Shown here: positions 5,362 through 60,700 of the stretch, in pieces
Position numbering within the stretch: position 1 is the first letter of the stretch
Layout of the letters: every line of letters starts with the position of its first letter
Origin: Blastocatellia bacterium
GTDB lineage: Bacteria > Acidobacteriota > Blastocatellia > UBA7656
DNA: 64,000 nucleotides
Assembly (NCBI GenBank): GCA_035293105.1
Contig: DATDOV010000066.1
Location: 97,967 to 161,966, forward strand
Reading direction: 5' to 3'
Notes under the pieces: generated by a model
Told to the model about the DNA's origin: nothing
Seen by the model: the letters and a program-made list of their open reading frames with translations, nothing else
Database searches by the model: none
Made by a program: the position numbers and the translations under genes

Positions 5362-6339
5362 ATGCCGCACGTTAATACTGTAAAGGGACCTATTGATACC
5401 GCACAGCTCGGCGCGACGCTCATGCACGAACACGTGTTCGTCCTCGCGACCGAGATACTTCAAAACTACCCAGCCGAGTGGGGCGATGAAGAACAACGCA
5501 TCGCCGACGCTGTCGCGCGATTGAACGAGCTTAAGAGCCGCGGCGTCGACTCGATCGTCGACCTCACCGTCATCGGACTCGGCCGCTACATCCCCCGAAT
5601 TCAGCGCGTCGCCGCCGAAACCGATATCAACATCATCGTCGCGACCGGCGTCTACACCTACAACGACGTGCCGATGTATTTTCACTTTCGCGGACCCGGC
5701 ACCACACTCGGCGGGCCGGAGTTGATGGCCGACATGTTCGTCAAGGACATCGAAGAAGGCATCGCCGGAACCAGCGTCCGGGCCGCGATCCTCAAGTGCG
5801 CGACCGACGAGCCGGGCGTGACCCCGGGCGTCGAGCGAGTCCTTCGCGCGACCGCTCAAGCGCACCGGCGGACGGGCGTGCCGATCTCGACCCACACTCA
5901 CGCTCATACGCGGCGCGGGCTCGAGCAGCAACGCATCTTTCAAGAAGAGGGCGTCGACCTCTCGCGAGTGATCATCGGACATTCGGGCGACACGACCGAC
6001 ATCGACTATCTCGAAGAGCTGATCTCGAACGGCTCGTACATCGGCATGGACCGGTTCGGCATCGACGTGCTGCTTGGCTTCGAAGACCGCGTGAATACCG
6101 TAGCCCGGATGTGCGAGCGCGGCCACGCCTCGAAGATGGTCCTCTCGCACGACGCGGCGTGCTTCAATCACTGGCTGCCCGAAGCGATGGTGCCGGTGCT
6201 GCTGCCGAGGTGGAACTTCCTCCACATCCACAACGACGTGATTCCGGCGTTGAAGTCGCGCGGCGTCACCAACGAGCAGATCACGACGATGCTTGTGGAC
6301 AATCCGCGAAAGATTTTTGAGAGGCAGGGGGCGTACTGA
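5362..6339 (+). CDS. Phosphotriesterase family protein (PTE or PLL-type metal-dependent lactonase/hydrolase).
   Basis: The N-terminal LMHEHV HxH metal-binding motif and TIM-barrel amidohydrolase-like conservation are present. Length 325 aa. Confidence 0.8.
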   Translation: MPHVNTVKGPIDTAQLGATLMHEHVFVLATEILQNYPAEWGDEEQRIADAVARLNELKSRGVDSIVDLTVIGLGRYIPRIQRVAAETDINIIVATGVYTYNDVPMYFHFRGPGTTLGGPELMADMFVKDIEEGIAGTSVRAAILKCATDEPGVTPGVERVLRATAQAHRRTGVPISTHTHAHTRRGLEQQRIFQEEGVDLSRVIIGHSGDTTDIDYLEELISNGSYIGMDRFGIDVLLGFEDRVNTVARMCERGHASKMVLSHDAACFNHWLPEAMVPVLLPRWNFLHIHNDVIPALKSRGVTNEQITTMLVDNPRKIFERQGAY

Positions 6340-7841
6340 TGATCAAGCCGTTTGATCAATCCGGCATCACTCGTGGCGCGGACGGCGTAGCCCACTACGA
6401 CAATCGTCCGAACTCGCTGATCGAGATGCTCCGAGCGACGGTCGACAAGACTCCCGACAAAGAAGCGATCGTCGAGTTGGGCGGAGAGCGCGTGAGCTAC
6501 GAACAACTGTGGGACCGTTCGGCGCGCGTCGCAGGGGGGCTTGCGGCGCTCGGAGTCAATCGAGGTGATCGCGTGGCGATTCGGCTGGGAAACGGGCTCG
6601 ACTGGTGCGTCGCGTTTTTCGGCGGGTTGATGGCGGGCGCGGTCGTCGTTCCCGTCAACACGCGGTTCTCTGAGTCTGAAGTCGACTATGTGGTGACCGA
6701 TTCGGGCTCGCGGTTCACCTTCATGCCGGGCGAGCCGTTACCCGATGGCTCGCCGCTGGTCGTCGAAGACCTGTCGCGCGATGATCTCGCCGCAATCTTC
6801 TACACGAGCGGCACTACCGGTTTCCCGAAGGGCGCGATGATGACCCACGAAAACTTCCTGTCTAACACGGAGACCTGCCGTCGCGTCGTGAATCTCCCCA
6901 CCGACGGCCGGGTGAGGAACCTCGTGTCCGTGCCGCTGTTCCACGTAACGGGCTGCAACAGCCAGCTTCTGCCGACGTGTGAAACCGGAGATACGCTGGT
7001 CATCATGCCTGCGTTCGAAGTTCAGGCGTTCCTGAGCGCGATCCGCGATGAACGCATCAACCTGCTGACCTCGGTCCCGGCGGTCTACTGGCTGGCGATC
7101 AATCAGCCGAACTTTGCGGAGCTGGACACATCGGAGATCGGCTGGGTGAGCTATGGCGGCGCGCCGATCGCTCCGGAGCTTGTGGCGCGAATCATGGAGG
7201 CGTTTCCAAACGCGCGGTTGGGCAATGGCTTCGGTTTAACCGAGACCTCTTCGGTCGCGACGTTTCTTCCGCACGAGTACGCGCGCACGCGGCCGGAGTC
7301 GGTCGGGTTCGCCGCGCCGGTAGTCGATCTCGATTTGTTCGAGCCTGACCCGAGGACCGGCGCCGGCGAGTTGCTGGCGCGCGGCCCGAACGTGGTGAAG
7401 GGTTATTGGAACAAACCGGAGGCGACGGCGGAGACGTTTGTGAACGGCTGGCTTCACACGGGCGACATGGCCCGCATCGATGAGGACGGCTTCGTGCAGA
7501 TTGTGGATCGGATCAAGGACATGATCTGTCGGGGAGGAGAGAACGTCTACTGCGTCGAAGTCGAGAACGTGCTGGCCGCTCACCCGGCTGTGTTTGAAGT
7601 CGCGGTGCTCGGCGTGCCTGACGCGATGATGGGCGAGAAGGTGGGCGCGGTGATAGTGCCGCGTCCGGGCAAGGAGGCCGAGCCGACGGATATTCTGGCG
7701 TTCGCGCGCGAGCATCTGGCTGACTTCAAGGTCCCGCAGTACGTGGTGATCCGCTCGGAGCCGATTCCGCGCAACCCGGGTGGGAAGATGTTGAAGCCGA
7801 GATTGAGAAAAGAAGTTGAGTGGGGCAAACCGGTGCGGTGA
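6339..7841 (+). CDS. AMP-dependent synthetase/ligase (acyl-CoA synthetase).
   Basis: The YTSGTTGFPKGAMMTHENF AMP-binding signature is present, followed by a typical C-terminal GEKV...PRNPGGKMLK region. The start overlaps the upstream stop (TGATG). Confidence 0.85.
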   Translation: MIKPFDQSGITRGADGVAHYDNRPNSLIEMLRATVDKTPDKEAIVELGGERVSYEQLWDRSARVAGGLAALGVNRGDRVAIRLGNGLDWCVAFFGGLMAGAVVVPVNTRFSESEVDYVVTDSGSRFTFMPGEPLPDGSPLVVEDLSRDDLAAIFYTSGTTGFPKGAMMTHENFLSNTETCRRVVNLPTDGRVRNLVSVPLFHVTGCNSQLLPTCETGDTLVIMPAFEVQAFLSAIRDERINLLTSVPAVYWLAINQPNFAELDTSEIGWVSYGGAPIAPELVARIMEAFPNARLGNGFGLTETSSVATFLPHEYARTRPESVGFAAPVVDLDLFEPDPRTGAGELLARGPNVVKGYWNKPEATAETFVNGWLHTGDMARIDEDGFVQIVDRIKDMICRGGENVYCVEVENVLAAHPAVFEVAVLGVPDAMMGEKVGAVIVPRPGKEAEPTDILAFAREHLADFKVPQYVVIRSEPIPRNPGGKMLKPRLRKEVEWGKPVR

Positions 7842-8027
7842 ATGGCGTCGAGTATCTCCGTCGCACAACGTTTGGCTCGTGTCCTAATTTGAAGTCTTGC
7901 CCATAGCGGACTTTTGGTTGCGTTTTAAACGCGTGTTGCTCGCAGGCGCGAACGTGATAAGATGTGGCCCTACGCGCCGTAGCAACTTCCCGGCACGGAC
8001 ATGGAGTTAGATAAGCGGAAACCCTCT

Positions 8028-8056
8028 TTGCAAGCTGAACGAAGCATGCTATATAT
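8028..8056 (+). promoter_or_regulatory. Candidate sigma70-like promoter (TTGCAA, 16-nt spacer, TATATA) in the AT-rich leader of the island.
   Basis: Hexamers read directly from the sequence. The position is about 220 bp upstream of the 8275 ORF. Confidence 0.3.
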
Positions 8057-8274
8057 GGAATCAAATCTCGCACAGAGTAACGTCAAAGTATGCGTGTGCC
8101 TCTTTTGCTCAGTTCCGCCTGGGCTTGCGCTAGGCTCCGGCGTTCACCGCACCTCTGCGGAATTCTGAGCGATTCACGCTCATTTCGCCGGCGCTAGCAG
8201 CCCAACGAAGGTTCACAATTCGTTGCAAGCGCGGCAGGCAAGAAGTAAGGCCCGTCGACGAATCAGTAATCACC

Positions 8275-11200
8275 TTGGATGGCAAGCCTACGTTGAATCT
8301 AAAGGCCGAACTGCTGAAATACGGCGCTTCGAGCGACAGCATTCGTTCGCTTGGCGGACCCCCATCGTTGGAATTGCTCGACTACTTGGATTTGGTTGAA
8401 CGACCGGAGCCACGCCCGGGATTGTGGCCCCATTGTGTTGTGGAGAATCAGGGAAGACCGCTCCTGTTCGTTGTCGATGAAAGCGGCCTTGCGCTCCCCC
8501 CGGTGGAGTCACCAGCCGAGTTCGAGAACCTTCGGCGTTTGCTCGCTTGTCGGGGTGAGCGCTCCTACCTGGCCCGAGTGTTGCCAGGCGAATTGAAGGT
8601 CGTTCCGGTGGGCTTCGGGCCACTCCCCGGCTGGAAAACATACCGCCCTGGCACAGGCGACGCGACGACCTTTGTATCCAGACTGGCGTTTGGCGAGTAT
8701 GACGGCACCGGGGAACCGAGAGACACAGACTTTGTCTTCACCGAGATGTTTGAGCTGCTGACGGGAGTCGCCAATCGGCTGGTGGGAGCGATAAGCAAGC
8801 TTGACGTGCTATCGCTAATCGGCCGAGCCCTGTTCTTTCGCTTTTTGCGTGACCGCCACGTAGTAACCGACAGAGACACTCACGCGGTCGCACCAAGGGC
8901 AATCGAACTCCTCGCTTGTTTCGATAACGCGACGAACGCGGAAGCGACATGCCAATGGCTTGACCGCACTTTTAACGGCGATTTTCTGCCTCTAAGCGAT
9001 GGTGGCAGCGGACTATTCTTCGAGCGCGTAGAAGGGGAAACTAACGGCAGCGTCTTTTCAGAACTCAGCGCTATTCTCCGAAGCGAGAAGCCGGTCGGAA
9101 AGCAGAGCTATCAACTCCAGTTTGATTGGTCCGATTTCGACTTTGCGCACGTGCCGGTCGGTCTTCTGAGCCAGGTCTATGAAGCCTTCTGCTGGAAATG
9201 GGAGCCTCACCTTTCGAAGGAGACCAGCGTTCACTACACGCCGCGCGGCATAGCGGCAACGCTTGTGGGTGAGGTTTTCGACAAGCTGAGCGACGCCCAC
9301 AAGGCTCGCGTGCTGGACCCGGCATGCGGTGCGGGTATCTTCCTGGTACTGGCATTTCGTCGGCTCTATCGCGAGCATTGGAATGCGTTCGGAAAACGCC
9401 CAGATACAACGGATATTCGCAAAATCCTAGAAAGGCAACTCGTCGGATTCGACACCAGTGATTTTGCCCTCAGACTTGCCGCCCTTAGCCTTTACCTTAC
9501 CGCGATCGAACTGGACCCGAACCCAGTTCCACCTGAGAAGCTCAGTTTCAGAGCGCCTCTGCGCGATCGCGTACTGTTCAACTTCGGGCACCCAGACAAT
9601 GATCACGCTGCGGGATTCGAGATTGGTAGCCTCGGGCCAGAGGTGGACACGAGCTTTGATGGCGGATTTCATATAGTGTTGAGTAACCCGCCTTGGACTA
9701 CCTTACCTCCCGAGAAGAAGGAACTCGCGAAACAACTCGAAGAAGCCACCAGGTCTGTCATCCGTCGAAAGGGAGAGGTTGACATGGCGGGTGCTTACCA
9801 CAACCCCGACAACTCACCCGATCTCCCATTCATTTGGAAGGCAACGGAATGGTGTATGCCCGATGGACGTATCGCGATGGCATTGCCGGCCCGAATCCTG
9901 ATGAAGCAGGAGGAGACGCCGCGCTTTGCTCGTGAAATGCTGTTTCGTTTGGTAGAGGTGACTGGCATCATCAACGGTTCGAACGTTTCGGATACGAGAG
10001 TCTGGCGAAAGATGAATCAGCCGTTCATGCTTCTCTTTGCCAGGAACGGCCGGCCACGCAAGAGCGGAGTCCTTAGACTGATAACTCCTTACTACGACGC
10101 CCATCTCAATCGCCGGGGCGAAGTCAGGGTGGACTCAAAATCTTCCTATCCCCTCGAGGTGCAGGCCGCTCTGGATGAACCCTGGGTATGGAAGACACTT
10201 GCTATAGGCAGTTCTCTGGACGTTGACGTGGTGAGAAAGATAAAACGCTCGTCGGAAGTATCACTAAAGGATTACTGGGATGACCTCGAACTAGCGAGTG
10301 GGCAGGGTTATCAAATAGCCGATGACCAGGTTCAAAGCGATGCCGAGTTTCTGAAGGGCCTTCCGAACTTGGACTCGACCGATAAATTCCAGTTTGTCGT
10401 TGAGGCCGGAGAACTGAGTTCATTTGACCGAGAGACGCTTTGTTGGCCGCGAAAGGAGGAAATTTACGAACCTCCTCTGCTGCTCGCAAAGGCAGCACCT
10501 GGCAGTGACCGCAAATCAGGGCGGGCGCTGCTATGCCTAGAGAAGATCGCGTACAACGAAAGCTATTTTGGCTATTCCGCAGCCGGACATCCGGATGGGG
10601 AGTTTCTCATTCGCTATATACATCTATTCGCCCATAGTAACGTCTGGCTTTATTATGTGCTCATGACAAGCTCGGAGTTTGGCGCCGAACGACGCAAACT
10701 TCACAAGGCGGATTTGGATAGATGCCCGTTTCTTCTCCCCGAGCGACTGACTGCCGAACAGCGCCAAAAGGTGCTTCTTCTATCTGAAAGACTGGTCTCA
10801 AAAGACGTGACTGTGTTCGATGACATAGACACTTTCTTCTGCAGTCTATATGGCTTGGGCAAGCTCGAGATCGAGACCCTAAGGGACACTCTGGACGTCG
10901 GCCTGCCCTACAAGTCTGCGCGGCAACGCGCATGCGGACGTGCCAAACCCGAAGAAAGTGATAGCTTTTGTCGCCGAGTGGAGACGCTACTCCGGCCCTT
11001 TTTCAAGGTCATGGGGAACGAACCACGGGTCCGTGCGTGGGAGCCCAGTGACCCTTATGCAGCTTCTCACGCCCCGTTCGCCGTTATGGTAGTTAGCCGC
11101 ACTGATCGCACCGCACCGCTACCCGACGAGCTGTTTCGTACAACCATCCTGCCTCTTGCGAACGAAACTGGCGCGACCCGGATAATTCTGGAGCTAGACG

Positions 11201-11310
11201 GTGGGTTAGTAATTGGAATACTCAATCAGTATCGCTACTGGACACAAAGCAGAGCGAGGCTACTCGCGGGTGAATTGCTGGGCAATCACATGAGCGTATT
11301 CGAGACGTGA
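8275..11310 (+). CDS. Large 1011-aa protein with a gamma-class N6-adenine DNA methyltransferase core and long N- and C-terminal extensions. The architecture resembles Type IIG or IIL restriction-modification enzymes.
   Basis: Motif X-like VHYTPRGIAATLVGEVF, motif I RVLDPACGAGIFLVLAFRRL and motif IV VLSNPPW occur in gamma order. An MTase-like continuation (DGRIAMALPARIL) follows. The helical segment LIGRALFFRFLRDRHVV resembles the connector of MmeI-like enzymes. The gene has lower GC and a different codon flavour than neighbouring genes. Confidence 0.7.
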   Translation: MDGKPTLNLKAELLKYGASSDSIRSLGGPPSLELLDYLDLVERPEPRPGLWPHCVVENQGRPLLFVVDESGLALPPVESPAEFENLRRLLACRGERSYLARVLPGELKVVPVGFGPLPGWKTYRPGTGDATTFVSRLAFGEYDGTGEPRDTDFVFTEMFELLTGVANRLVGAISKLDVLSLIGRALFFRFLRDRHVVTDRDTHAVAPRAIELLACFDNATNAEATCQWLDRTFNGDFLPLSDGGSGLFFERVEGETNGSVFSELSAILRSEKPVGKQSYQLQFDWSDFDFAHVPVGLLSQVYEAFCWKWEPHLSKETSVHYTPRGIAATLVGEVFDKLSDAHKARVLDPACGAGIFLVLAFRRLYREHWNAFGKRPDTTDIRKILERQLVGFDTSDFALRLAALSLYLTAIELDPNPVPPEKLSFRAPLRDRVLFNFGHPDNDHAAGFEIGSLGPEVDTSFDGGFHIVLSNPPWTTLPPEKKELAKQLEEATRSVIRRKGEVDMAGAYHNPDNSPDLPFIWKATEWCMPDGRIAMALPARILMKQEETPRFAREMLFRLVEVTGIINGSNVSDTRVWRKMNQPFMLLFARNGRPRKSGVLRLITPYYDAHLNRRGEVRVDSKSSYPLEVQAALDEPWVWKTLAIGSSLDVDVVRKIKRSSEVSLKDYWDDLELASGQGYQIADDQVQSDAEFLKGLPNLDSTDKFQFVVEAGELSSFDRETLCWPRKEEIYEPPLLLAKAAPGSDRKSGRALLCLEKIAYNESYFGYSAAGHPDGEFLIRYIHLFAHSNVWLYYVLMTSSEFGAERRKLHKADLDRCPFLLPERLTAEQRQKVLLLSERLVSKDVTVFDDIDTFFCSLYGLGKLEIETLRDTLDVGLPYKSARQRACGRAKPEESDSFCRRVETLLRPFFKVMGNEPRVRAWEPSDPYAASHAPFAVMVVSRTDRTAPLPDELFRTTILPLANETGATRIILELDGGLVIGILNQYRYWTQSRARLLAGELLGNHMSVFET

Positions 11311-12029
11311 TTATGCCATATGGTTTTTACGATAAGCCAAGAGTCATAGAACTACCGCACCCGCCGGTAGCGCTCGCTGTCTTTCTCACCGTCGAGGCAG
11401 CGATGCTGGCCGCTTGGAATATCTTGCGTGTCAGACGCCGTCCAGGCTTCGACCTCTCGAATGCGGACGAAGACATCGTGACTCAGGAGCTTTATGAAGT
11501 CCTGTCCGACCAAGTGTTTGATAAGGGAGTCGTCGGCGGGTTTGACCGCGAACTTTTTACCGACATTAATCGCGAGTCGAAGTTTCGCAGTTACAACTAT
11601 GCCCATCTGGACAAGATGCCTGATCTGAACATTGGCCTTGTCGGCAGACAAGCTTTCTATCCGTCGCAGGACCGGATTTTCATGGAATGCAAGCCAGTAG
11701 ACTCAACGCACACCGTCGGTAAGCACTACTGCGGAATGGGCATTTTTCGGTTCGTCCGCGGGGAATATGCATGGACCATGACTAGCGTATTGATGATTGG
11801 CTACGTCCGCGAAGACTATAGGATAGTCCCAAAACTGACCGATGCCCTCAAGAGGGTGTCACACGAGATCAGTACTATCGGTGATCCGTATCAGTGCAGC
11901 AAATCCGAAGCCTCTTTGATCAGCGAGGCCGTCTACATTAGTCACCACGCTCGGAGGTTTGAGTACGTCGAAACTAGGTTGGCCGCTCCAGACATAACGA
12001 TCCGTCACCTCTGGCTACGTCGGGATTGA
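11307..12029 (+). CDS. Small 240-aa protein with a PD-(D/E)xK-like nuclease signature. It is translationally coupled to the upstream methyltransferase protein.
   Basis: The start overlaps the upstream stop (ATGA). The motif arrangement E(LFTDINRESKF) ... D(KMPDLNIG) ... ECK(IFMECKPVD) fits the E-(P)D-(D/E)xK pattern of restriction-endonuclease-like folds. It has the same low-GC character as the upstream gene. Confidence 0.45.
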   Translation: MIMPYGFYDKPRVIELPHPPVALAVFLTVEAAMLAAWNILRVRRRPGFDLSNADEDIVTQELYEVLSDQVFDKGVVGGFDRELFTDINRESKFRSYNYAHLDKMPDLNIGLVGRQAFYPSQDRIFMECKPVDSTHTVGKHYCGMGIFRFVRGEYAWTMTSVLMIGYVREDYRIVPKLTDALKRVSHEISTIGDPYQCSKSEASLISEAVYISHHARRFEYVETRLAAPDITIRHLWLRRD

Positions 12030-12225
12030 ATCACTGCCTGCTCGGAAAGTCTTCGTTTGTAATTTCCAGCCCAGACCAATCCTGGCACCGCGGGCTTGGT
12101 TAGAACATAGACGATCATCACAAGGTAATGACCCCACCTTTAGCCAGCGAGGAGCGCTTCTTCGCGGCCCGATTAATCATCCGTTGAATCAACTGCAACG
12201 AATTATTCCGCTACCAACTACTGAC

Positions 12226-15093
12226 TCATCGTCTTCCCGCCCACACACTGAAGACCGTCCCGCCGCCGGCTTGCGCGCCCCACTCGACCTCCGCTTCAAT
12301 CAAACTCGCGCGCGAGCGGATGTTCGCAAGCCCGCGCCCATTCGAAACACTCCTCGCCGCAGCATCAAATCCCCTGCCGTTGTCCTCAAGCCGAATCACC
12401 CAACGGCCCTCCGAGTCGCACGACACTTCCAACCGCACGTGCGTCGCCCCCGAGTGGCGGCACACGTTGCTGATCGCTTCCTGAACGATTCGATAGACCT
12501 GAATCTGGACGGCAGGCGCGAGTCGCAGCTTCTCTTCGATGGCTTCATCGCAAGCGAACTCGTACTCGAACCTTCCCTCCGCCGGCATGTGCGCGACCGC
12601 GTCCGCAACCGCCCACTCGAGCGCCGCCGCCAACCCGACATTCGCGAGCGCCGACGGGCTCAGGTCTTCGCATATCCGCCGAATCTCCGTCGATACCGCT
12701 TCGATCTCGTTGCGAAAGACCGCCGGCTCGATCCCGTCGCGTCGCTCGTCACCCTCGCGCGCCGGCAGTTGATCGGTCATCAACAGCAATCGTCTCAAGT
12801 CCGCCAGCGTCTGGTCGTGCAAGTCGCGCGCGATCCTCCGCCTCTCTGTCTCCGTTTCGTTGGCCAACTGCATTCGAGTCTCGGCAAGCTGCCGATTCGC
12901 ATCGCCGAGCGCGACGTTGCTTGCGGCCATCCGCTTGTTCTGACGGTGGCCCCACCACATCGCCACGAGCGCCAATCCGAGCAGCGCCGCAAGCGCCGTC
13001 GTCGTCCACGGAAAGGGCGCGCGCGCGACTCGAAACTCGAGCGCAAGCGGCTCTGAAACCACCAGGTCGTTGGTGAACGCGCGCGCTTCGATGCGATACC
13101 GGCCGGGCGTCAGGTTCTCGATCAGGAACTGCGAATCGCGCGCGAGCTTATGCCTGAGCGGCCTGCCCGCCGAATCCAGAAGGGAGAACGAATACTGAAA
13201 CTGCTCGGGGAATGTGCGGCCGCTCAGCGCCTCCACGTCGAGCGCGAGGCTGTTTTGCGGATAATCGAGATCGAGCCCCGCGCGAATCTCGTCGGGTTGG
13301 AACACCCGCTTGCTCATCACCCGCGCGGCTCGAAGCTGCGGAGCGACGCGGCCCGGAACGTAGCGCGCAACCCCGTGACTGGTCCCGACCCACAACACTT
13401 CTTCGCCCGATGCGCCGGTGGTGCTCAGAATCGCGAACGCATTCTCCGAAGGAAGACCCTGCTCCGTGTCGAGCCGCGCGACAATGGCTTCGCCTCCTTC
13501 GTCGAGCAGCACCTTGTAGAGCCCTCCGCCCGCGGTCACGCACCATGCCGCGTCGCCCTTAGCCGTCACTCTTCGCACGTCGTTGCCTTTAAGCGGCCAG
13601 AGCAACTCACCCGCGCGAAGCGCCGCAAGGCCTCGTGGCACCGCGACCCACAACACCCCGTCGCTCGTTCCGCCAATCGACCAGGCCGTCTCGTTGCTCA
13701 AACCGTCGAGCGCGGCGTCGCGTCGGACCTCTTTGCCGTCGAAGACGAGGACGCCGCCGTCCGCCGCGCCGATCCACAAGCGCTTGCCGTCGTCGGAGTG
13801 CAGGCTGACGAGCGAGTCATTCGCCCAGACGAGCGTGCGGCGATCTCGTTCCAGTCGCTCGAGACCTCGCCCGAAGCCCGCAATGTAAAACGAGCCTTGA
13901 AACTCGCAGATGGCCCGCACGCTTCCGGCGTCCCGGTCATCGGTTTTGACTCTTGTAAAGAGCCGTGAGCCCGCGAGCGCACCCGGCACTCCGCGAGCGC
14001 GCCGCTGCCGGGTCGTCGGCTTCGCGCCGGTGAATAGACCCGAGGCCGTACCGACGAGCAGATGTTCGGGTGCGTCTTCGGCAATCGAGTGAACCGTGTG
14101 GCCGCGTAGCTCAGGGACCTCAACCCAGCGATCGGCGCTCTTGTCGCGAACGAAGAGACCTCGATTCGTCCCGCACCATATCCATCCGTCTCGCGATTGA
14201 AAGAGCGCGCGGGCGAAGTTGCTCTCCGGACGATCGGAGACGGCTTCGATTCGAAGGCTGTTCGGATCGTAACGGCACGCGCCGCGATCGGTCCCGAACC
14301 AGATCACGCCTTCGCGATCGACGAAGACAGCGTAGATGTGATTCGACCGAAGCCCGCCTGCGGTGTTCTCAAACGTGAAGTGCTCGAGTTGGCGGGAGCC
14401 TCGATAGAGAAACGCGCCGTGACCATCTGAGACGATCCAGAGGTTGCCGTTTTGGTCGGGCGTCAGGGCCGTCACTTCGCGCGCGGGCACGGCCGGCGGT
14501 CGCATCGTCTCTCGGCTTTGGCCCGCCGCGCTTTGGTCGACGGTCGTCCGAGCGCCCGGTGACGGGCCTCGCGCGTCGGAGTCGGCAACAGGTTTGAATT
14601 CACCGTCGATCAGACGCACTGTGCCCGAGGCGGTTCCAATTCGGAGTGCACCGTCGTCGTCGATTTTGATAGCACGCACTCCGCCTAATGGAAGACCCTC
14701 AGCAGTGATCTTCTGAACACGGCGGCCGTCGTAGCGAGCGAGGCCGTTGTCGGTTCCGAACCAGATGAAGCCCTCGCGGTCCTGGGCTATGGCTCGCACG
14801 TGATCGGAGGGCAGGCCGTGGAACAACGTGACCGCGCCCCACTGATGGAGGTTTGTTGAGGGAGTTTGGAGCGCGGGCGTTTGCGCCGGAACTGCGCGCA
14901 GCGCGAGACACGTGAGCAGCACGCCGGCGAGGGAAGACCAGCCTTCAATCAAGCACAGTGCCCGCGCAGAAGGATAGGTCGCTGACTGGCCCAAGCTACT
15001 CGGTTTGCTTCTCACTTCGTGGAGTCTCATCACGACCCAAAATGTAGCCCGGAGCTCTTCATTAGGGTCCGAATGTTCGACGCTTGCGAACAC
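12226..15093 (-). CDS. Hybrid-architecture sensor histidine kinase. It has an extracytoplasmic two-component-regulator beta-propeller with Y_Y_Y-like repeats, a TM segment, a HisKA_3 dimerisation domain and a HATPase_c domain.
   Basis: Repeated WIGT/WFGT/WVGT propeller motifs, one TM helix (ALAALLGLALVAMWW), a NarL-class H-box (IARDLHDQTLADL) and a C-terminal ATPase G-boxes region. The true start is probably downstream of the ORF start. Confidence 0.8.
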   Translation of the reverse strand: MFASVEHSDPNEELRATFWVVMRLHEVRSKPSSLGQSATYPSARALCLIEGWSSLAGVLLTCLALRAVPAQTPALQTPSTNLHQWGAVTLFHGLPSDHVRAIAQDREGFIWFGTDNGLARYDGRRVQKITAEGLPLGGVRAIKIDDDGALRIGTASGTVRLIDGEFKPVADSDARGPSPGARTTVDQSAAGQSRETMRPPAVPAREVTALTPDQNGNLWIVSDGHGAFLYRGSRQLEHFTFENTAGGLRSNHIYAVFVDREGVIWFGTDRGACRYDPNSLRIEAVSDRPESNFARALFQSRDGWIWCGTNRGLFVRDKSADRWVEVPELRGHTVHSIAEDAPEHLLVGTASGLFTGAKPTTRQRRARGVPGALAGSRLFTRVKTDDRDAGSVRAICEFQGSFYIAGFGRGLERLERDRRTLVWANDSLVSLHSDDGKRLWIGAADGGVLVFDGKEVRRDAALDGLSNETAWSIGGTSDGVLWVAVPRGLAALRAGELLWPLKGNDVRRVTAKGDAAWCVTAGGGLYKVLLDEGGEAIVARLDTEQGLPSENAFAILSTTGASGEEVLWVGTSHGVARYVPGRVAPQLRAARVMSKRVFQPDEIRAGLDLDYPQNSLALDVEALSGRTFPEQFQYSFSLLDSAGRPLRHKLARDSQFLIENLTPGRYRIEARAFTNDLVVSEPLALEFRVARAPFPWTTTALAALLGLALVAMWWGHRQNKRMAASNVALGDANRQLAETRMQLANETETERRRIARDLHDQTLADLRRLLLMTDQLPAREGDERRDGIEPAVFRNEIEAVSTEIRRICEDLSPSALANVGLAAALEWAVADAVAHMPAEGRFEYEFACDEAIEEKLRLAPAVQIQVYRIVQEAISNVCRHSGATHVRLEVSCDSEGRWVIRLEDNGRGFDAAARSVSNGRGLANIRSRASLIEAEVEWGAQAGGGTVFSVWAGRR

Positions 15094-20566: not shown

Positions 20567-20576
20567 GGGCGAAGAC

Positions 20577-20762
20577 ATCCACGAAGAACACGAAGGAACA
20601 CGAAGAATGGGAAGGGAAAAACACTCGATTCGAAAAAGAGAAAGGCTCTTTGTTCATGGTCAGGGACGCGCCGACTGGTTGGGTCTCGGTGAAGAGCCTC
20701 GACCGAAGAAGTCCGCAGGCCCCGCAGCTTTTCTTCGTGTTACTTCGTGTCCTTCGTGGATG
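20577..20762. mobile_element. MITE-like unit 1. It is about 186 bp, bounded by about 30-bp imperfect terminal inverted repeats, each made of three CACGAAG heptads at 9-10 bp spacing.
   Basis: Left end TCCACGAAGAACACGAAGGAACACGAAGAA. Right end TTCTTCGTGTTACTTCGTGTCCTTCGTGGA, which is the reverse complement apart from 3 mismatches. Confidence 0.55.
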
Positions 20763-20777
20763 AAACGGAGAAGGATA

Positions 20778-20961
20778 TCCACGAAGGCCACGAAGAAACA
20801 CGAAGAATGAGAAGGGGAAAATTCACTGGATTCGGAAAAAGAGGCTCTTTGTTCGTGGTTGGGGCCGTGCCGATTGTTTGGGTCTTTGGTGAAGAGCCTC
20901 GACCGAAGAAGTCCGCAGGCCCCACAGCTTTTCTTCGTGTTACTTCGTGGCCTTCGTGGAT
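20778..20961. mobile_element. MITE-like unit 2, a tandem copy about 90% identical to unit 1 with the same TIR structure.
   Basis: Direct alignment to unit 1, separated from it by a 15-bp spacer. The antisense and sense ORFs in this region encode repeated peptides and are artefacts of the repeat. Confidence 0.55.
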
Positions 20962-20964
20962 GAA

Positions 20965-21333
20965 TCATCTTACGAACTTCTTCCATTCGAGCTTTCCGGT
21001 ACTGCCAAAGTTGATCAGCAGCCCAACCCGCAGACCCGTCGCTTTCAGGTAGTTCAGTATCTGCGACTCTTCACGCCCGCCGAGGCCATCAAGCGCCTTG
21101 ATCTCGACGACGATCTGCCCATAGCAAATGAAATCCGCCTGATACTCTTTGTTCAGACGCTCTCCTTTGTAGTGGATCACAAGCGGCGCTTGCGCGACGA
21201 AGGGGATGCCACGGCTGCGAAGTTCTCGCTCCAGCGCTTCTTGATAAACCGGTTCGAGGAATCCTGACCCAAGCTCGCGGTGGACTACTATCGCCGCTCC
21301 AATGACGGCGTAGACCTCGTCTTTCAGAATCAA
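20965..21333 (-). CDS. GxxExxY family protein (PD-(D/E)xK nuclease-like superfamily).
   Basis: The 122-aa protein carries the family signature (IGAAIVVHRELGSGFLEPVYQEALERELRSRGIPF ... DFICYGQIVVEIKA). Confidence 0.75.
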   Translation of the reverse strand: MILKDEVYAVIGAAIVVHRELGSGFLEPVYQEALERELRSRGIPFVAQAPLVIHYKGERLNKEYQADFICYGQIVVEIKALDGLGGREESQILNYLKATGLRVGLLINFGSTGKLEWKKFVR

Positions 21334-21455
21334 CTCCGTCGTTCTTTCTCCTTCGTGATACTTATCCGATTCTTTTCTCCGGCCAGTTCGGGAAAGCTTT
21401 GCCAGGGCCTTTCGTTGATGCCCTACATCGATCCTCCGGCACCAACTCTTCCCTG

Positions 21456-21484
21456 TGTGTTATTGCCTTCGTGTTTCTTCGTGT
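21456..21484. repeat. Solo copy of the triple CTTCGTG array (right-TIR-like), about 125 bp upstream of the GxxExxY gene start.
   Basis: CCTTCGTGTTTCTTCGTGTCCTTCGTGGA matches the right TIR of the tandem units. A single extra CTTCGTG lies at about 21348. Confidence 0.5.
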
Positions 21485-21495
21485 CCTTCGTGGAT

Positions 21496-33650: not shown

Positions 33651-34046
33651 ATGGAACAAAACATTGAATCCGCTTCCCGCAAGCAATTGGTCCAAGCCGT
33701 TGAACGGTTGAGTCCGGCGGAACTAGATGATTTTGTGGACCACGTTGCGGCACTGCGGGCGCGACGCCACGCGCCAATGTTGTCAGACGATGAGTCGTCA
33801 CTTTTCGCCGTCATCAACCAGGCCCTGCCGGAATCTGATCGTCAGCGCCTCGCAGAGCTGGTTGAACGGCGATCAGACGAAATGCTGACGCCGGGCGAAC
33901 ACTCTGAACTGCTGCAGCTTCAACAGCGGCTTGAAGCCCTGCACGCGGCGCGGGTTAAAGCACTGGCAGAGCTAGCTCGGACGCGGGGTGTCACTCTCAA
34001 TGTGGTGATGGAGCAGCTAGGCATACGGCTCCCGGATCATGCCTGA
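33651..34046 (+). CDS. Hypothetical all-helical 131-aa protein, encoded 5 bp upstream of the HNH endonuclease gene.
   Basis: ORF with an AGGAG-like motif upstream. Acidic, helical, with no recognised family. Confidence 0.4.
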   Translation: MEQNIESASRKQLVQAVERLSPAELDDFVDHVAALRARRHAPMLSDDESSLFAVINQALPESDRQRLAELVERRSDEMLTPGEHSELLQLQQRLEALHAARVKALAELARTRGVTLNVVMEQLGIRLPDHA

Positions 34047-34051
34047 AGTCG

Positions 34052-34498
34052 ATGTCTGAAAAACACATTCCGGCCGAACGCCGCCGGGTGATTCGCGATC
34101 AGGCCAATGGAATCTGTGAATACTGCCGCAGCCAGGAGTGCTTCTCGCCTCAGCGGTTTTCCGTCGAACACATCAAGCCCCGCTCGGCTGGGGGGCAACC
34201 GACCCGGGAGAATCTGGCTCTCTCCTGCCAGGGCTGCAATGGGCACAAGTACACGAAGCAAAAGTCACCCGATCCCGTCACGGGCGATGTCGTTGCACTG
34301 TTTCACCCGCGAAGACAAAGGTGGCGCGATCATTTTGCCTGGAGTGTAGATGCCTCGCTCATTGTGGGTCTAACGCCTGTCGGACGAGCGACGGTTGAAG
34401 CGTTGCGGATGAATCGCATTGAACTGGTCAACCTGCGGGAGGTCCTCTATGGCGCGCAGAAACATCCCCCCGCTGAACCCGATGAAGAATACGGATAG
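34052..34498 (+). CDS. HNH endonuclease.
   Basis: CEYC ... EHIKPRSAGG ... N ... CQGCNGHK gives the full HNH zinc-finger signature. Confidence 0.75.
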   Translation: MSEKHIPAERRRVIRDQANGICEYCRSQECFSPQRFSVEHIKPRSAGGQPTRENLALSCQGCNGHKYTKQKSPDPVTGDVVALFHPRRQRWRDHFAWSVDASLIVGLTPVGRATVEALRMNRIELVNLREVLYGAQKHPPAEPDEEYG

Positions 34499-57934: not shown

Positions 57935-58782
57935 TCTCGGTCGGATTTGGCCTGCTCGGCCAGCATCAGCCTGTAGGCTTCGCTCTTCGTGATTCCGCGC
58001 GAGCGGGCGACGCGTTTGAGCGCGCTCTTACGGTCGATGCCTTGTTCGAGCATTAGCGCTTCAACCTCATTCAGGAGTGAGGCGGTCACGGGCCTGGTCA
58101 GATTATCATCGAGCGGCGGGCCGATGAGCAACACGATCTCCCCCTTCACCTGCGCGTCTTTCATCGCCTCTTCGATTTCCGCGAGGCTGCCTCGAAGAAA
58201 CTCCTCGTGGAACTTGGTCAACTCGCGCGCGATTACGCACTGGCGGTTGCCGAGAACTTCGAGCGCGTCGGTGATCGTCTGCGTGATTCGATGCGGGGCT
58301 TCATAAAATATGAGCGTTGCGCGACTCGTTGCGAGCTCGGCGAGCCGCGCACGCCGGGCCCCGCGCCGCGCAGGCAGGAATCCCGCGAAGGTGAACTGGT
58401 CGGTAGGCAGGCCCGACGCGGCGAGCGCGGTGATGAGCGCCGACGGTCCGGGTATCGATACGACGCGGATTCCGCGCTGAACGGCTTCGCGCACCAGTCT
58501 GTAGCCGGGGTCGGAGACGGTTGGGGTCCCGGCGTCGCACACGAGAGCGATATCGATCCCGGCTTCAAGCTTGTCCGCTAACCCGGCGGCGCGCGCGCGT
58601 TCGTTGTGCTCGTGGAGCGCAGTGAGCGGCTTCGAGATTTGATAATGCGAGAGCAGTTTGCGCGTGTGGCGAGTGTCTTCGCAGGCGATCAGGTCAACCT
58701 GTCGGAGAATACCGAGCGCCCGCATGGTTATGTCTTCGAGGTTGCCGATCGGGGTGGAGACAAGGTATAGGATGCCAGACAT
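57931..58782 (-). CDS. rsmI: 16S rRNA (cytidine1402-2'-O)-methyltransferase RsmI.
   Basis: The N-terminus (GILYLVSTPIGNLEDITMRALGIL) and the tetrapyrrole-methylase fold are conserved. Start taken at the family-typical Met rather than the ORF-track start. Confidence 0.8.
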   Translation of the reverse strand: MSGILYLVSTPIGNLEDITMRALGILRQVDLIACEDTRHTRKLLSHYQISKPLTALHEHNERARAAGLADKLEAGIDIALVCDAGTPTVSDPGYRLVREAVQRGIRVVSIPGPSALITALAASGLPTDQFTFAGFLPARRGARRARLAELATSRATLIFYEAPHRITQTITDALEVLGNRQCVIARELTKFHEEFLRGSLAEIEEAMKDAQVKGEIVLLIGPPLDDNLTRPVTASLLNEVEALMLEQGIDRKSALKRVARSRGITKSEAYRLMLAEQAKSDRE

Positions 58783-59114
58783 GAAAAACCATCCGCGAAT
58801 AATTGGAGTCATCACGAACGTGCGCCGAAGGCGCGTCGTCGGAAACGTCGGATTATAGCTCATTTGATAAATCGAGCGGCATTAATCGGTGCCTCGGTAG
58901 TCGGGTCAAAAACTGGTCGCGGTCTAGCCCGACTTAAAGAAGCGCTGAGAATTGCTTAGCTTACCCATTAGCTTATTAGCTTATCCAGAGGCTTGACAAG
59001 CTCTCCGACTTAGTGAAGCATTGAACCCCCCGTGAGATTTATCCACAAGAAAGGATGATCTTGCATTTCCATAACGGGAAGCTTAGCATCATAGTTTAGG
59101 AGGTACGAGGGTCA

Positions 59115-59348
59115 ATGGAATCCCACTTCTTGATTGGTAATCCATCGTTTCTATCTGGTATGTCCAGAACCCTCGATCTGCGAGGGGTGTTTGACGATTA
59201 TAACTATAGCCTGACACCGGAACAGGCTGATCAAATAGCGCTCTTCTTAGACTGGTACATGACGAGTCAAGATATTCAAGGCGCAGTCAAAGCGCACGAG
59301 ACAGAACGTAGCGCGGCGCTAGAGACTCTTTCGAGCGTAAGCCGATAA
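59115..59348 (+). CDS. AT-rich small hypothetical protein (77 aa).
   Basis: Strong AGGAGG ribosome-binding site 7 nt upstream of the ATG. No recognised family. Confidence 0.4.
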   Translation: MESHFLIGNPSFLSGMSRTLDLRGVFDDYNYSLTPEQADQIALFLDWYMTSQDIQGAVKAHETERSAALETLSSVSR

Positions 59349-59352
59349 TCGA

Positions 59353-59853
59353 ATGTCCGACCCCGAACGCCCCGACGACTCTCGTACAAACGCCGTTGAG
59401 GCATCTGAACCGACAGGTTCACCCCACATTATCCGCCAAGAAGTCATTGTTAAATACGAGGCTCCACTGCCGCCGCCAGGAATGATGGAGCACTACGAGC
59501 GGATACTGCCCGGTAGTGCTGACAGAATTGTTACAATGGCGGAAAAACAATCCGCACACCGCCAAGACATCGAATCGCGGGTCATCACATCGAATATTGG
59601 TAACGAGCGATTAGGGCAAATCTTTGCTTTTATTCTTGGCCTAATCGGGTTAATTGGAAGTATTGTGCTAGCATCTTTGGGCAGAATCTCGATTGGACTA
59701 ATAATGTTTCTTGCTATCTTGGTTAGTTTAGTTGCGGTCTTCATCGTGGGCAGATATGCACAAAGTAGAGAACGTGAAACTAAACTGGACAAGTTAAGGG
59801 ATGCGCTCAAGTCAGCCGCCGTCGAGCCTGAACATCCGACGCTGCCTAAATAA
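59353..59853 (+). CDS. DUF2335-family predicted membrane protein.
   Basis: PPPGMMEHYERILPGSADRIVTMAEKQSAHRQDIE matches the characteristic DUF2335 N-terminal block. Two TM helices follow. Confidence 0.6.
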   Translation: MSDPERPDDSRTNAVEASEPTGSPHIIRQEVIVKYEAPLPPPGMMEHYERILPGSADRIVTMAEKQSAHRQDIESRVITSNIGNERLGQIFAFILGLIGLIGSIVLASLGRISIGLIMFLAILVSLVAVFIVGRYAQSRERETKLDKLRDALKSAAVEPEHPTLPK

Positions 59854-60013
59854 CAGCGGCGCTAAGTCAGCAACACGCTAATACCTACTATCGGCGCCTC
59901 CGTGGACGCTACCAAGAAGGTCAGGCGCGCCGCCGCTATGGAGCATTCCGGTACTTATCGAGTATAATCCACCCTCTGATTAAGACATCTAATCGAGCCG
60001 AGAGGAGCAGACA

Positions 60014-60595
60014 ATGGACAATATTCAGATAAGAGCGGACGTCGACAGGAACGACATACAAGTCTGCCGCTTCACGGTTGACAGGGCGGTGCATTCGGGC
60101 TCGGATGCCTACGCCAGCCCTGAAGAGGCCAAAGCGGACCCCCTGGCGGACAAGATACTCAACATTCCAGGCATCGCGAAAGTCGAGCTCTCAGAGAACG
60201 TCGTCACTGTCACCCAGGACGCGGGGCAGGACTGGCGCCAGATCGGCAAACGAGTCGGCACGGCCATCCGGCACTTTATCAATCCGCCGCCGGAGATAGC
60301 CGAGGGTGACAGGCTTCCTTCCGAGGCCGTCAGGGAGCGAATTCAGCGGATTCTCGATACGCAGATCAACCCGGGCGTCGCCGCGCATGGAGGCTTCGTC
60401 GAGTTGATCGACGTCGCGGACGACACGATATACATTCGCATGGGCGGCGGGTGCCAGGGGTGCGGCGCGGCGGATGTGACTCTGAAGATGGGAGTCGAGC
60501 GATTGATCCGCGAAGAGGTGCCCCAGGTGCGCGAGATACTCGACACAACTGATCACGCCGGCGGCACGAATCCCTACTACGCGCCGTCGAAATAG
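60014..60595 (+). CDS. nfuA: NifU/Nfu-type Fe-S cluster scaffold protein (NfuA-like).
   Basis: C-terminal Nfu domain with the CQGC motif (YIRMGGGCQGCGAADVTLK). Confidence 0.8.
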   Translation: MDNIQIRADVDRNDIQVCRFTVDRAVHSGSDAYASPEEAKADPLADKILNIPGIAKVELSENVVTVTQDAGQDWRQIGKRVGTAIRHFINPPPEIAEGDRLPSEAVRERIQRILDTQINPGVAAHGGFVELIDVADDTIYIRMGGGCQGCGAADVTLKMGVERLIREEVPQVREILDTTDHAGGTNPYYAPSK

Positions 60596-60637
60596 GACAC
60601 GGCGATCACGAGTTTCGATTAAATCGGATTCAAGCAT

Positions 60638-60672
60638 CAAGCTCAGGCTGGCGACCGTGCCAGTCTGAGCTT
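60638..60672 (+). terminator. Rho-independent terminator after the nfuA-like gene.
   Basis: AGCTCAGGCTGGC gaccgt GCCAGTCTGAGCT (13-bp stem with 1 mismatch), followed by TGTGTTGTATTT. Confidence 0.55.
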
Positions 60673-60700
60673 GTGTTGTATTTGGAAGCGAGAGCGTCGA

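What the first reader, a model, noticed from the sequence alone, without database searches (positions are those of the whole stretch)
7842..12225. Low-GC two-gene island inserted between housekeeping genes
The acyl-CoA ligase gene ends at 7841. A 430-bp AT-enriched leader follows, then two overlapping genes with clearly lower GC and an AT-rich codon flavour (many AAA, TTA and GAT codons) compared with the roughly 65-70% GC neighbours. The sensor kinase gene converges on the island at 12226. This composition is typical of horizontally acquired defence cargo.
Basis: seen in the sequence. Interest (0 to 1): 0.6.

Follow-up and report, generated by a model that had tools for sequence, protein, structure and literature searches.

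The report
Horizontally acquired two-gene restriction-modification cassette
The low-GC stretch is a self-contained, horizontally moving two-gene cassette: a large adenine DNA methyltransferase plus a small restriction-endonuclease-like protein. It is most likely an ordinary restriction-modification system from a family that nobody has characterised.

Summary
Window 7842-12225 is 52-57% GC against 61-66% in the flanks, and its two genes have the lowest GC3 (0.60/0.615) and the lowest codon-adaptation index of 35 long ORFs.

Comparison with the same cassette in a different genomic context sets its limits at 7932-12042: a 343-nt non-coding leader, gene A and gene B.

- Gene A (8275-11310, 1011 aa) is a gamma-class N6-adenine DNA methyltransferase with intact motifs (DPACGAG, NPPW). 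Its layout resembles a Type IIG enzyme and it has an HsdS-like target-recognition domain. No conserved nuclease triad was found in its N-terminal domain.
- Gene B (11313-12029, 238 aa) matches no Pfam, NCBIfam, PADLOC or PHROG model. It folds confidently (pLDDT 91) as a PD-(D/E)XK restriction endonuclease (OkrAI, BglII, BamHI neighbours) with invariant PD...ExK.
- The pair occurs with the same order in Acidobacteriota, Chloroflexota and Verrucomicrobiota and on proteobacterial plasmids. Neighbours always differ, and GC is always lower than the flanks.

Best reading: a mobile restriction-modification cassette. Activity, recognition site and whether B acts alone or docked on A are untested. An empty-site comparison was not possible. 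This is a new member of a known kind, of modest interest.

The parts
7932..12042 (+). Whole mobile cassette (leader + gene A + gene B + 13 nt)
   Evidence: blastn of window 7001-13000 against L093 and L092, which carry the same cassette between TPR and ATP-sulfurylase genes. One colinear match covers window 7932-12042, at 89% and 82% nucleotide identity, and nothing matches outside it. GC is 0.547 against 0.608 for the rest of the window.
7932..8274 (+). Non-coding leader that travels with the cassette (5' region of gene A)
   Evidence: It is conserved at about 84% in L092/L093, but indels break every small ORF. It is not conserved in distant family members, and tblastx finds no hidden ORF shared across clades. 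There is no Rfam match. Long leaders of 340-515 nt precede gene A in other loci too.
8028..8055 (+). Candidate promoter, found by eye only: TTGCAA, 16 nt, TATATA
   Evidence: Read directly from the sequence. The block is almost invariant in L092/L093. The consensus scanner did not call it, so it is a lead, not a finding.
8275..11310 (+). Gene A: 1011-aa gamma-class N6-adenine DNA methyltransferase with a Type IIG-like layout (TTG start)
8275..8790 (+). A, N-terminal alpha/beta domain (aa 1-172) of unknown function; not a canonical nuclease
   Evidence: No Pfam hit in any of 26 members. D68/E106/K108 of the window protein are N/D, E/Q and variable in homologues. Across 15 sequences including the plasmid copies, the only invariant acidic residue is E57. 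No profile similarity to B or to PDB sequences.
9313..9348 (+). A, SAM-binding motif I (LDPACGAGIFLV, aa 347-358)
   Evidence: L347, D348, P349, A350, G352 and F356 are invariant in 26 family members. Coordinates.
9685..9696 (+). A, catalytic motif IV (NPPW, aa 471-474)
   Evidence: Invariant in 26 members. Motif I lies before motif IV and the recognition domain lies C-terminal, which is the gamma-class order (direct reading). Coordinates.
10222..10764 (+). A, approximate target-recognition domain (aa ~650-830), HsdS-like fold
11313..12029 (+). Gene B: 238-aa PD-(D/E)XK restriction-endonuclease-fold protein (alternative GTG start at 11307 overlaps A by 4 nt)
11613..11696 (+). B, catalytic motif K101-M-P-D104 ... 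E125-C-K127
   Evidence: K101, M102, P103, D104, E125, C126, K127 and P128 are invariant in 30 sequences. In the model D104 lies immediately before the strand at 105-109, and E125/K127 lie within the strand at 121-129. This is the canonical PD-(D/E)XK placement. Coordinates.

Best explanation
A 4.1-kb mobile restriction-modification cassette was acquired horizontally by a Blastocatellia (Acidobacteriota) genome.

Gene A is a SAM-dependent N6-adenine DNA methyltransferase. It carries its own HsdS-like target-recognition domain and marks host DNA at a still unknown sequence. Gene B, whose start lies 3 nt after A's stop (a spacing compatible with translational coupling), is a Mg2+-dependent PD-(D/E)XK endonuclease that cuts DNA lacking that mark. 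The pair therefore restricts incoming phage and plasmid DNA and, like other R-M pairs, can behave as an addictive selfish unit.

Shown here: the composition anomaly, the cassette limits, the domain and fold assignments, intact catalytic motifs in both proteins, strict A-then-B linkage with co-divergence, and patchy multi-phylum distribution in unrelated contexts.

Inferred: methylation, cleavage, defence, and the division of labour between the two proteins.

On the division of labour I lean only slightly (about 55:45) towards B working docked on A rather than as an independent Type IIP-like dimer. A keeps the N-terminal domain and helical connector that couple nuclease to methyltransferase in Type IIG enzymes, but no conserved catalytic triad was found in that N-terminal domain.
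For: Composition and codon usage:
- GC, GC3 and codon index are outliers.
- The cassette is lower in GC than its flanks in all 8 other hosts checked.

Mobility:
- The cassette is delimited at 7932-12042 by comparison with a copy in another context.
- The A-B pair appears in about 10 independent contexts, always in the same order. B starts 3 nt after A's end in the seven metagenome loci and in the window; spacing varies in the plasmid copies.
- One plasmid copy lies in a defence island with AbiE, another REase, an integrase and dnd-like genes, preceded by an XRE regulator.
- The pair is absent from 96 loci related to either flank.

Gene A:
- N6_Mtase, MmeI_Mtase and Eco57I domains; a Type IIG profile match.
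- Invariant DPACGAG and NPPW motifs.
- Structural neighbours BpuSI, M.BseCI, CamA, PglX, MmeI and HsdS.

Gene B:
- A confident REase fold with invariant PD...ECK.

Co-divergence:
- A and B distances correlate at r = 0.83, with 0 of 2000 Mantel permutations reaching that value. Pairs were inferred from shared contig lengths.
Against: - No activity, methylation motif or phage phenotype is known for any member, and I found no paper on the family.
- PD-(D/E)XK proteins also act in repair, recombination and toxin roles.
- The AF2 model of A is poor in the methyltransferase core (pLDDT 30-50 over residues 281-645).
- A is unusually uniformly conserved, with no hypervariable recognition domain.
- No empty site, flanking repeats, tRNA or integrase document the insertion event.
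- The GC difference is moderate (about 6 points).
Confidence: 0.75

Rival explanations
1. Gene A alone is a complete single-chain Type IIG restriction-modification enzyme, which is how an automated annotator would label it. B is then an unrelated or accessory neighbour.
Against: The PADLOC match covers only residues 173-485 and not the N-terminal nuclease part. D68, E106 and K108 are not conserved in the family: they are N/D, E/Q and variable. No nuclease Pfam domain appears in any of 26 members. B is invariably linked to A, co-diverges with it and carries a perfect catalytic motif.
Confidence: 0.07
2. This is not a restriction system. A is an orphan or regulatory (epigenetic) methyltransferase. 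B is a PD-(D/E)XK protein with another role, such as repair, recombination, or a toxin held in check by A.
For: Close structural neighbours of A include the orphan methyltransferase CamA. The PD-(D/E)XK fold is shared with Hjc, Cas4, NucC and CdiA toxins, which also appear in B's hit list. The uniformly high conservation of A, including its recognition region, resembles conserved orphan methyltransferases.
Against: Patchy multi-phylum distribution, lower GC than the host in every case, plasmid and defence-island locations, and an upstream XRE/MerR-type regulator in some copies are hallmarks of mobile R-M or defence modules, not housekeeping epigenetic enzymes. The top 5 structural hits of B are all Type II restriction enzymes.
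Confidence: 0.1
3. A non-classical, BREX/DISARM/MADS-like methylation-based exclusion system. The PglX-like methyltransferase marks self, and interference does not rely on simple site-specific cleavage.
For: A matches PglX, DrmMI and MAD2 profiles weakly. PglX/BrxX are structural neighbours. A has a non-catalytic N-terminal domain, as PglX does.
Against: Scores are far below the family cut-offs: 46 bits against 720 for MAD2, and 28-31 bits against 400-900 for PglX models. None of the obligatory partners (PglZ, BrxC, BrxL, DrmA/B/C, the other mad genes) lies next to the pair in any of about 10 contexts.
Confidence: 0.05
4. The low GC is not a sign of transfer. The two genes are ancestral and simply have an unusual amino-acid or codon composition.
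For: The GC difference is moderate. The window has other low-GC stretches. No empty site could be found.
Against: The effect is strongest at third codon positions. The identical cassette, with its leader, sits in a different locus in another organism. The family is scattered over phyla and plasmids.
Confidence: 0.03

Closest known systems
Type IIG / IIL restriction-modification enzymes (BpuSI, MmeI, DrdV)
   Different: The N-terminal domain lacks a conserved PD-(D/E)XK triad and matches none of the other Pfam MmeI domain models. A separate nuclease gene always follows. Sequence similarity is confined to the methyltransferase and connector regions.
Classical Type IIP R-M pairs with BamHI-like endonucleases (BamHI, OkrAI, BglII, BstYI)
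   Different: There is no detectable sequence similarity (7-11% identity in structural alignments). B has a D...ExK triad, whereas BamHI uses D...ExE (textbook knowledge). The partner methyltransferase is 2-3 times larger than usual for Type IIP systems and is monomer-like with a single HsdS-like recognition domain.
Type I and Type III R-M systems (logic only)
   Same: The recognition domain sits on the methyltransferase side, with an HsdS-like fold and an HsdM-like N-terminal helical region. The nuclease is a separate polypeptide that could depend on the methyltransferase for targeting.
   Different: B has no helicase, translocase or ATPase domain. There is no separate S subunit. The system has two genes only.
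BREX PglX / DISARM DrmMI / MADS MAD2 methyltransferases
   Same: Large gamma-class adenine methyltransferases with extra N- and C-terminal domains.
   Different: Scores are far below the family cut-offs, and none of the partner genes is present in any context.

Membership tests
Restriction-modification system (generic) | A DNA methyltransferase with intact SAM-binding and catalytic motifs | tested here: met
   N6_Mtase, MmeI_Mtase and Eco57I Pfam hits above the cut-offs. DPACGAG and NPPW are invariant in 26 members. Structural neighbours are DNA adenine methyltransferases. Enzyme activity was not tested.
Restriction-modification system (generic) | A linked endonuclease with catalytic residues | tested here: met
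Restriction-modification system (generic) | Cleavage of unmodified DNA is blocked by the cognate methylation, and foreign DNA is restricted | not testable with these tools
   This needs cloning, methylome sequencing and cleavage or phage assays.
Type IIG (single-chain R-M) enzymes | Endonuclease catalytic domain fused in the same polypeptide as the methyltransferase | tested here: not met
   No conserved D...(D/E)xK in the N-terminal domain. No nuclease Pfam domain in 26 members. The PADLOC IIG match excludes residues 1-172. A is therefore not filed as Type IIG, although its layout is IIG-like.
Type IIG (single-chain R-M) enzymes | Gamma-class methyltransferase followed by a C-terminal target-recognition domain | tested here: met
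   Motif I lies before motif IV. An HsdS-like domain follows the methyltransferase.
PD-(D/E)XK nuclease superfamily (protein B) | [quoted passage not shown] | tested here: met
BamHI-like Type IIP endonuclease family (protein B) | Sequence-level homology, homodimer, palindromic recognition | tested here: inconclusive
BREX (PglX) | PglX scoring above the model cut-off together with PglZ, BrxC and other partner genes | tested here: not met
   24-31 bits against cut-offs of 400-900. No partner genes in any neighbourhood.
MADS (methylation-associated defence system) | MAD2 equivalog score and the multi-gene mad cluster | tested here: not met
   46 bits against a cut-off of 720. Two-gene cassette only.
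Genomic island / horizontally acquired DNA | Atypical composition and presence of the same unit in unrelated contexts | tested here: met
   (composition). (same cassette in another context). (other phyla and plasmids).
Genomic island / horizontally acquired DNA | An empty site in a close relative, or integration hallmarks (tRNA, integrase, flanking repeats) | tested here: inconclusive
   No close enough relative exists in the GTDB representatives or JGI metagenomes. No tRNA, integrase or convincing direct repeats were found.

The most novel reading that the evidence does not exclude
The cassette represents a distinct R-M architecture, a 'split Type IIG' system. The methyltransferase keeps the IIG scaffold, meaning a non-catalytic N-terminal docking domain, helical connector, methyltransferase and HsdS-like recognition domain. 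It recruits a free-standing BamHI-fold nuclease (B) that has little or no sequence specificity of its own. Recognition, modification and cleavage would then be coupled in a two-protein complex without any ATPase. B would also found a new, widespread restriction-endonuclease family (hundreds of 50%-identity clusters) that current defence-system and domain libraries do not detect.
Probability: 0.35. Interest if true: 0.45.

Novelty: new member of a known kind. Interest (0 to 1): 0.33.

Why it matters
If the reading is right, this is a widespread R-M family in soil phyla (Acidobacteriota, Chloroflexota, Verrucomicrobiota) and on proteobacterial plasmids. Its endonuclease is invisible to Pfam, NCBIfam, PADLOC and PHROGs, so surveys of defence systems undercount it or mislabel gene A as a stand-alone Type IIG enzyme.

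The pair could yield a restriction enzyme and methyltransferase with a new specificity. If B depends on A, it would be a natural example of how fused Type IIG enzymes and multi-subunit systems interconvert. For this genome, it marks a recent horizontal acquisition at the junction between two conserved gene blocks.

It does not open a long-standing question. R-M cassettes in low-GC islets are common.

Tried and rejected
1. Synteny or empty-site test. A scan of GTDB representative genomes with the ligase found Blastocatellia relatives at 82-83% identity. They keep PTE-ligase but not the kinase block. A scan of JGI metagenomes with the kinase found relatives at 61% identity or less. They keep RR-kinase(-DUF3142) but not PTE-ligase. 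No empty site was available.

2. Flanking direct or inverted repeats, tRNA genes and integrases. Nothing convincing was found.

3. Leader as a structured RNA or hidden gene. There is no Rfam hit and no conservation beyond close relatives. Indels break the ORFs, and tblastx finds nothing shared across clades. The promoter scanner found no site. One promoter candidate was seen by eye only.

4. Third conserved gene. The upstream and downstream neighbours of different copies are not homologous. Only the Pseudomonas and Burkholderia upstream proteins resemble each other.

5. N-terminal domain of A as a degenerate copy of B or a known nuclease. hhalign found no relation and the PDB profile search found nothing.

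6. Sequence searches of B against PDB. Only a spurious ISG17 hit at E = 0.024.

7. Guessing the recognition site from palindrome avoidance. CAGCTG is absent (0 observed against 11.5 expected). The same depletion occurs in relatives without the cassette, so it cannot be attributed to this system.

8. Phage carriage. No hit in 50,697 phage records and one hit in IMG/VR.

9. Literature searches found nothing on this family. The Haloferax HVO_A0006 paper (PMC4389544) concerns an unrelated Type IIG fragment.

10. The AFDB fold library was unavailable. An A-B complex prediction was not possible because structure jobs were exhausted and the combined length exceeds the limit.


Full report
**Observation.**
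- An AMP-binding ligase ORF (6339-7841) is followed by a 433-bp spacer of 53.8% GC.
- Two same-strand ORFs follow: 8275-11310 (1011 aa) and 11307/11313-12029 (240/238 aa).
- A Reg_prop/HATPase sensor kinase then converges on the minus strand, ending at 12226.

In 400-nt windows, GC is 0.52-0.58 across 7800-12200 and 0.60-0.67 on either side. The effect is strongest at third codon positions: GC3 is 0.601 and 0.615, against 0.68-0.83 for 32 other long ORFs. A leave-one-out codon-adaptation index ranks the two genes lowest of 35 ORFs, at 0.511 and 0.518, with the next at 0.550.

Minor corrections:
- The neighbours are 61-66% GC, not 65-70%.
- TTA is not enriched. AAA, GAT, GAA and ATT are enriched, and ATC is strongly depleted.
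- The window has three other, milder low-GC stretches.

**Limits of the unit.** The closest homologues of gene A (P0122 at 90% and P0123 at 84% identity) lie on contigs L093 and L092. These two contigs are syntenic with each other but have quite different neighbours from the window: STAS/TPR upstream and ATP-sulfurylase downstream. Their flanks have no counterpart in the window.

blastn of window 7001-13000 against them gives one colinear match, window 7932-12042, at 89% and 82% identity. Similarity fades at both ends within a few bases. The transferred unit is therefore 4.1 kb: a 343-nt leader, gene A, gene B and 13 nt after B's stop.

**Gene A.** Pfam finds N6_Mtase, MmeI_Mtase and Eco57I methylase domains, all within residues 297-565. 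The same three families match all 26 family members tested, and nothing else does.
- PADLOC's best matches are two Type IIG profiles of the same length as A. The alignment covers only residues 173-485, that is the helical connector and the first half of the methyltransferase.
- BREX PglX, DISARM DrmMI and MADS MAD2 models match weakly and far below their cut-offs.
- Motif I (LDPACGAGIFLV, aa 347-358) and motif IV (NPPW, aa 471-474) are conserved in 26 homologues: NPPW is invariant, as are L347, D348, P349, A350, G352 and F356 of motif I. They occur in the gamma-class order.
- The AF2 model is mediocre overall (pLDDT 65). It is poor in the methyltransferase core but good for residues 650-1011.

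A thus has a Type IIG-like layout: N-terminal alpha/beta domain, helical connector, gamma-class methyltransferase, HsdS-like recognition domain and a C-terminal helical/alpha-beta domain.

The one thing missing is a nuclease. The D68...E106-x-K108 pattern seen in the window protein is not conserved (N/D, E/Q, variable). With plasmid homologues included, E57 is the only invariant acidic residue of the N-terminal 175 residues. Profile comparisons of this domain with B and with PDB sequences found nothing.

**Gene B.** There is no match in Pfam, NCBIfam, PADLOC or PHROGs, either for the window protein or for 30 family members or three plasmid homologues. The family is well conserved (64% mean column identity) and has 45 invariant positions, including K101-M-P-D104 and E125-C-K127-P128.

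An exhaustive profile search finds 625 cluster representatives at 50% identity (471 at E <= 1e-10). The best 150 listed are all free-standing proteins of at most 274 aa, with no fusions.

**Linkage and distribution.** In every context inspected the order is A then B. In the seven metagenome loci and the window, B starts 3 nt after A's end; in the three plasmid copies the spacing varies. The contexts are the window and its sister contigs, L005, L007, L008, L010/L011, L092/L093, L178, L179 and three proteobacterial plasmids. The surrounding genes are unrelated from case to case.

Source names place homologues in Acidobacteriota, Blastocatellia, Pyrinomonadaceae, Chloroflexota, Dehalococcoidia and Verrucomicrobiota. 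The plasmid copies are in Pseudomonas, Agrobacterium, Burkholderia and Allorhizobium. The Pseudomonas and Agrobacterium methyltransferases are full-length homologues of A, at 34-36% identity over about 1000 residues.
- In Agrobacterium the pair sits in a defence island (AbiE, a restriction endonuclease, an integrase, dnd-like genes) behind an XRE regulator.
- L007 has a MerR regulator upstream.
- The window copy has only the non-coding leader.

Pairwise distances of A and of B across 25 presumed pairs correlate at r = 0.83, with 0 of 2000 Mantel permutations reaching that value. The module has lower GC than its flanks in all eight other hosts examined. It is essentially absent from phage records: 0 of 50,697 records, and 1 hit in IMG/VR.

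**Host and insertion site.** The ligase's best matches are Blastocatellia MAGs at 82-83% protein identity, so the window is from an acidobacterium of that class. In those and 14 further relatives the PTE-ligase pair is kept, but neither A/B nor the kinase follows.

Conversely, 80 metagenomic relatives of the kinase (61% identity or less) keep the response regulator in 61 cases and DUF3142 with the next gene in 7-8 cases. None has A/B and only one has a ligase homologue, with no PTE. The cassette therefore lies at the junction of two independently conserved blocks and is not part of either. A true empty site could not be found. No tRNA, integrase or convincing flanking repeats are present. Such 'bare' R-M insertions are documented alongside repeat-flanked ones (Furuta et al. 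2010, PMC2853133).

**Mechanism.** The best-supported reading is a two-gene restriction-modification cassette. A recognises a DNA sequence through its HsdS-like domain and methylates adenine N6. B cleaves DNA that lacks the mark.

What is shown is architecture, motifs, fold, linkage and mobility. Activity is inferred.

Two sub-models remain:
- B is an independent Type IIP-like enzyme. Its size and closest folds favour this.
- B is a trans-acting nuclease docked on A. Favouring this, A retains an N-terminal domain and helical connector with no apparent use in a stand-alone methyltransferase. The A-stop/B-start spacing is invariant in the metagenome copies. B is as conserved as A (mean distances 0.385 and 0.366).

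I lean slightly to the second sub-model but cannot separate them with these tools.

The alternatives are each disfavoured by the tests listed in the membership table:
- A as a complete Type IIG enzyme.
- An orphan methyltransferase with an unrelated nuclease.
- A BREX-like system.
- No horizontal transfer at all.

**Novelty and verdict.** The kind of system, a mobile R-M pair in a low-GC islet, is well known. The specific family appears uncharacterised. B is not covered by any of the four profile libraries, sources call it 'hypothetical protein', and I found no paper on it.

I rate it a new member of a known kind, with interest about 0.33. There is a roughly one-in-three chance that it is a genuinely distinct 'split Type IIG' architecture, which would raise the interest to about 0.45.

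Noticed in passing
window 20574-21495: Two tandem units of about 200 nt (84-97% identical, 20574-20964), each bounded by ~29-nt inverted termini (GATATCCACGAAG...CACGAAG / CTTCGTG...CTTCGTGGAT). A third copy of the right terminus lies at 21467-21495. The 122-aa PDDEXK_3-type ORF at 20965-21333 (-) is therefore bracketed by these termini. This looks like a MITE-like element in a second low-GC stretch.
   Followed up: partly
window 33651-34498: A 131-aa ORF is followed by a 148-aa ORF with an HNH-endonuclease-like motif (CEYC...HIKPRSAGG...CQGCNGHK). They lie at the edge of another low-GC stretch (34-37 kb, GC 0.54-0.56) and may be another small mobile or defence module.
   Followed up: no
window, outside 7932-12042: The palindrome CAGCTG is absent from about 60 kb (0 observed, 11.5 expected). 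AGATCT occurs 4 times against 12.3 expected and AGTACT once against 6.1. CAGCTG is also about two-fold depleted in 917 kb of related metagenomic loci and in relatives without the cassette, so the cause is not this cassette and remains unexplained.
   Followed up: partly
window 58000-61000: A third low-GC stretch (0.545) holds a 166-aa membrane-protein ORF (59353-59853) and a NifU-like ORF (60014-60595).
   Followed up: no
window 5362-7841; L012-L027: The phosphotriesterase-family gene and the AMP-binding ligase overlap by one base (ATGA). They are kept as a pair at 72-83% identity in Blastocatellia and Terriglobia MAGs. Neither their upstream nor their downstream neighbours are kept, so the pair itself behaves as a small portable operon.
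   Followed up: partly
L094 3496-3951, L096 3276-3767, L095 3600-3890, L007 4161-4640, L179 3522-3935: Some family members carry a small gene directly upstream of the methyltransferase. It is an XRE-type HTH in Agrobacterium and MerR_1 in L007. In Pseudomonas and Burkholderia it is a pair of homologous 151/163-aa proteins with no Pfam match (26% identity, E 4e-10). These are possibly controller proteins. The window copy has none.
   Followed up: partly
L096 3748-6737 (Burkholderia glumae plasmid p22s3p): In this copy the methyltransferase is annotated as two consecutive ORFs (548 aa 'N-6 DNA methylase' and 448 aa hypothetical) ahead of the B homologue. This is either a natural split or a frameshifted, decaying copy.
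   Followed up: no
window 8275 vs 8293: Gene A has no ATG start. The ORF opens with TTG at 8275, and a second in-frame TTG at 8293 would give MNLK..., the N-terminus called for several homologues. Homologues with the longer MxxxxTLNLK N-terminus favour 8275.
   Followed up: partly
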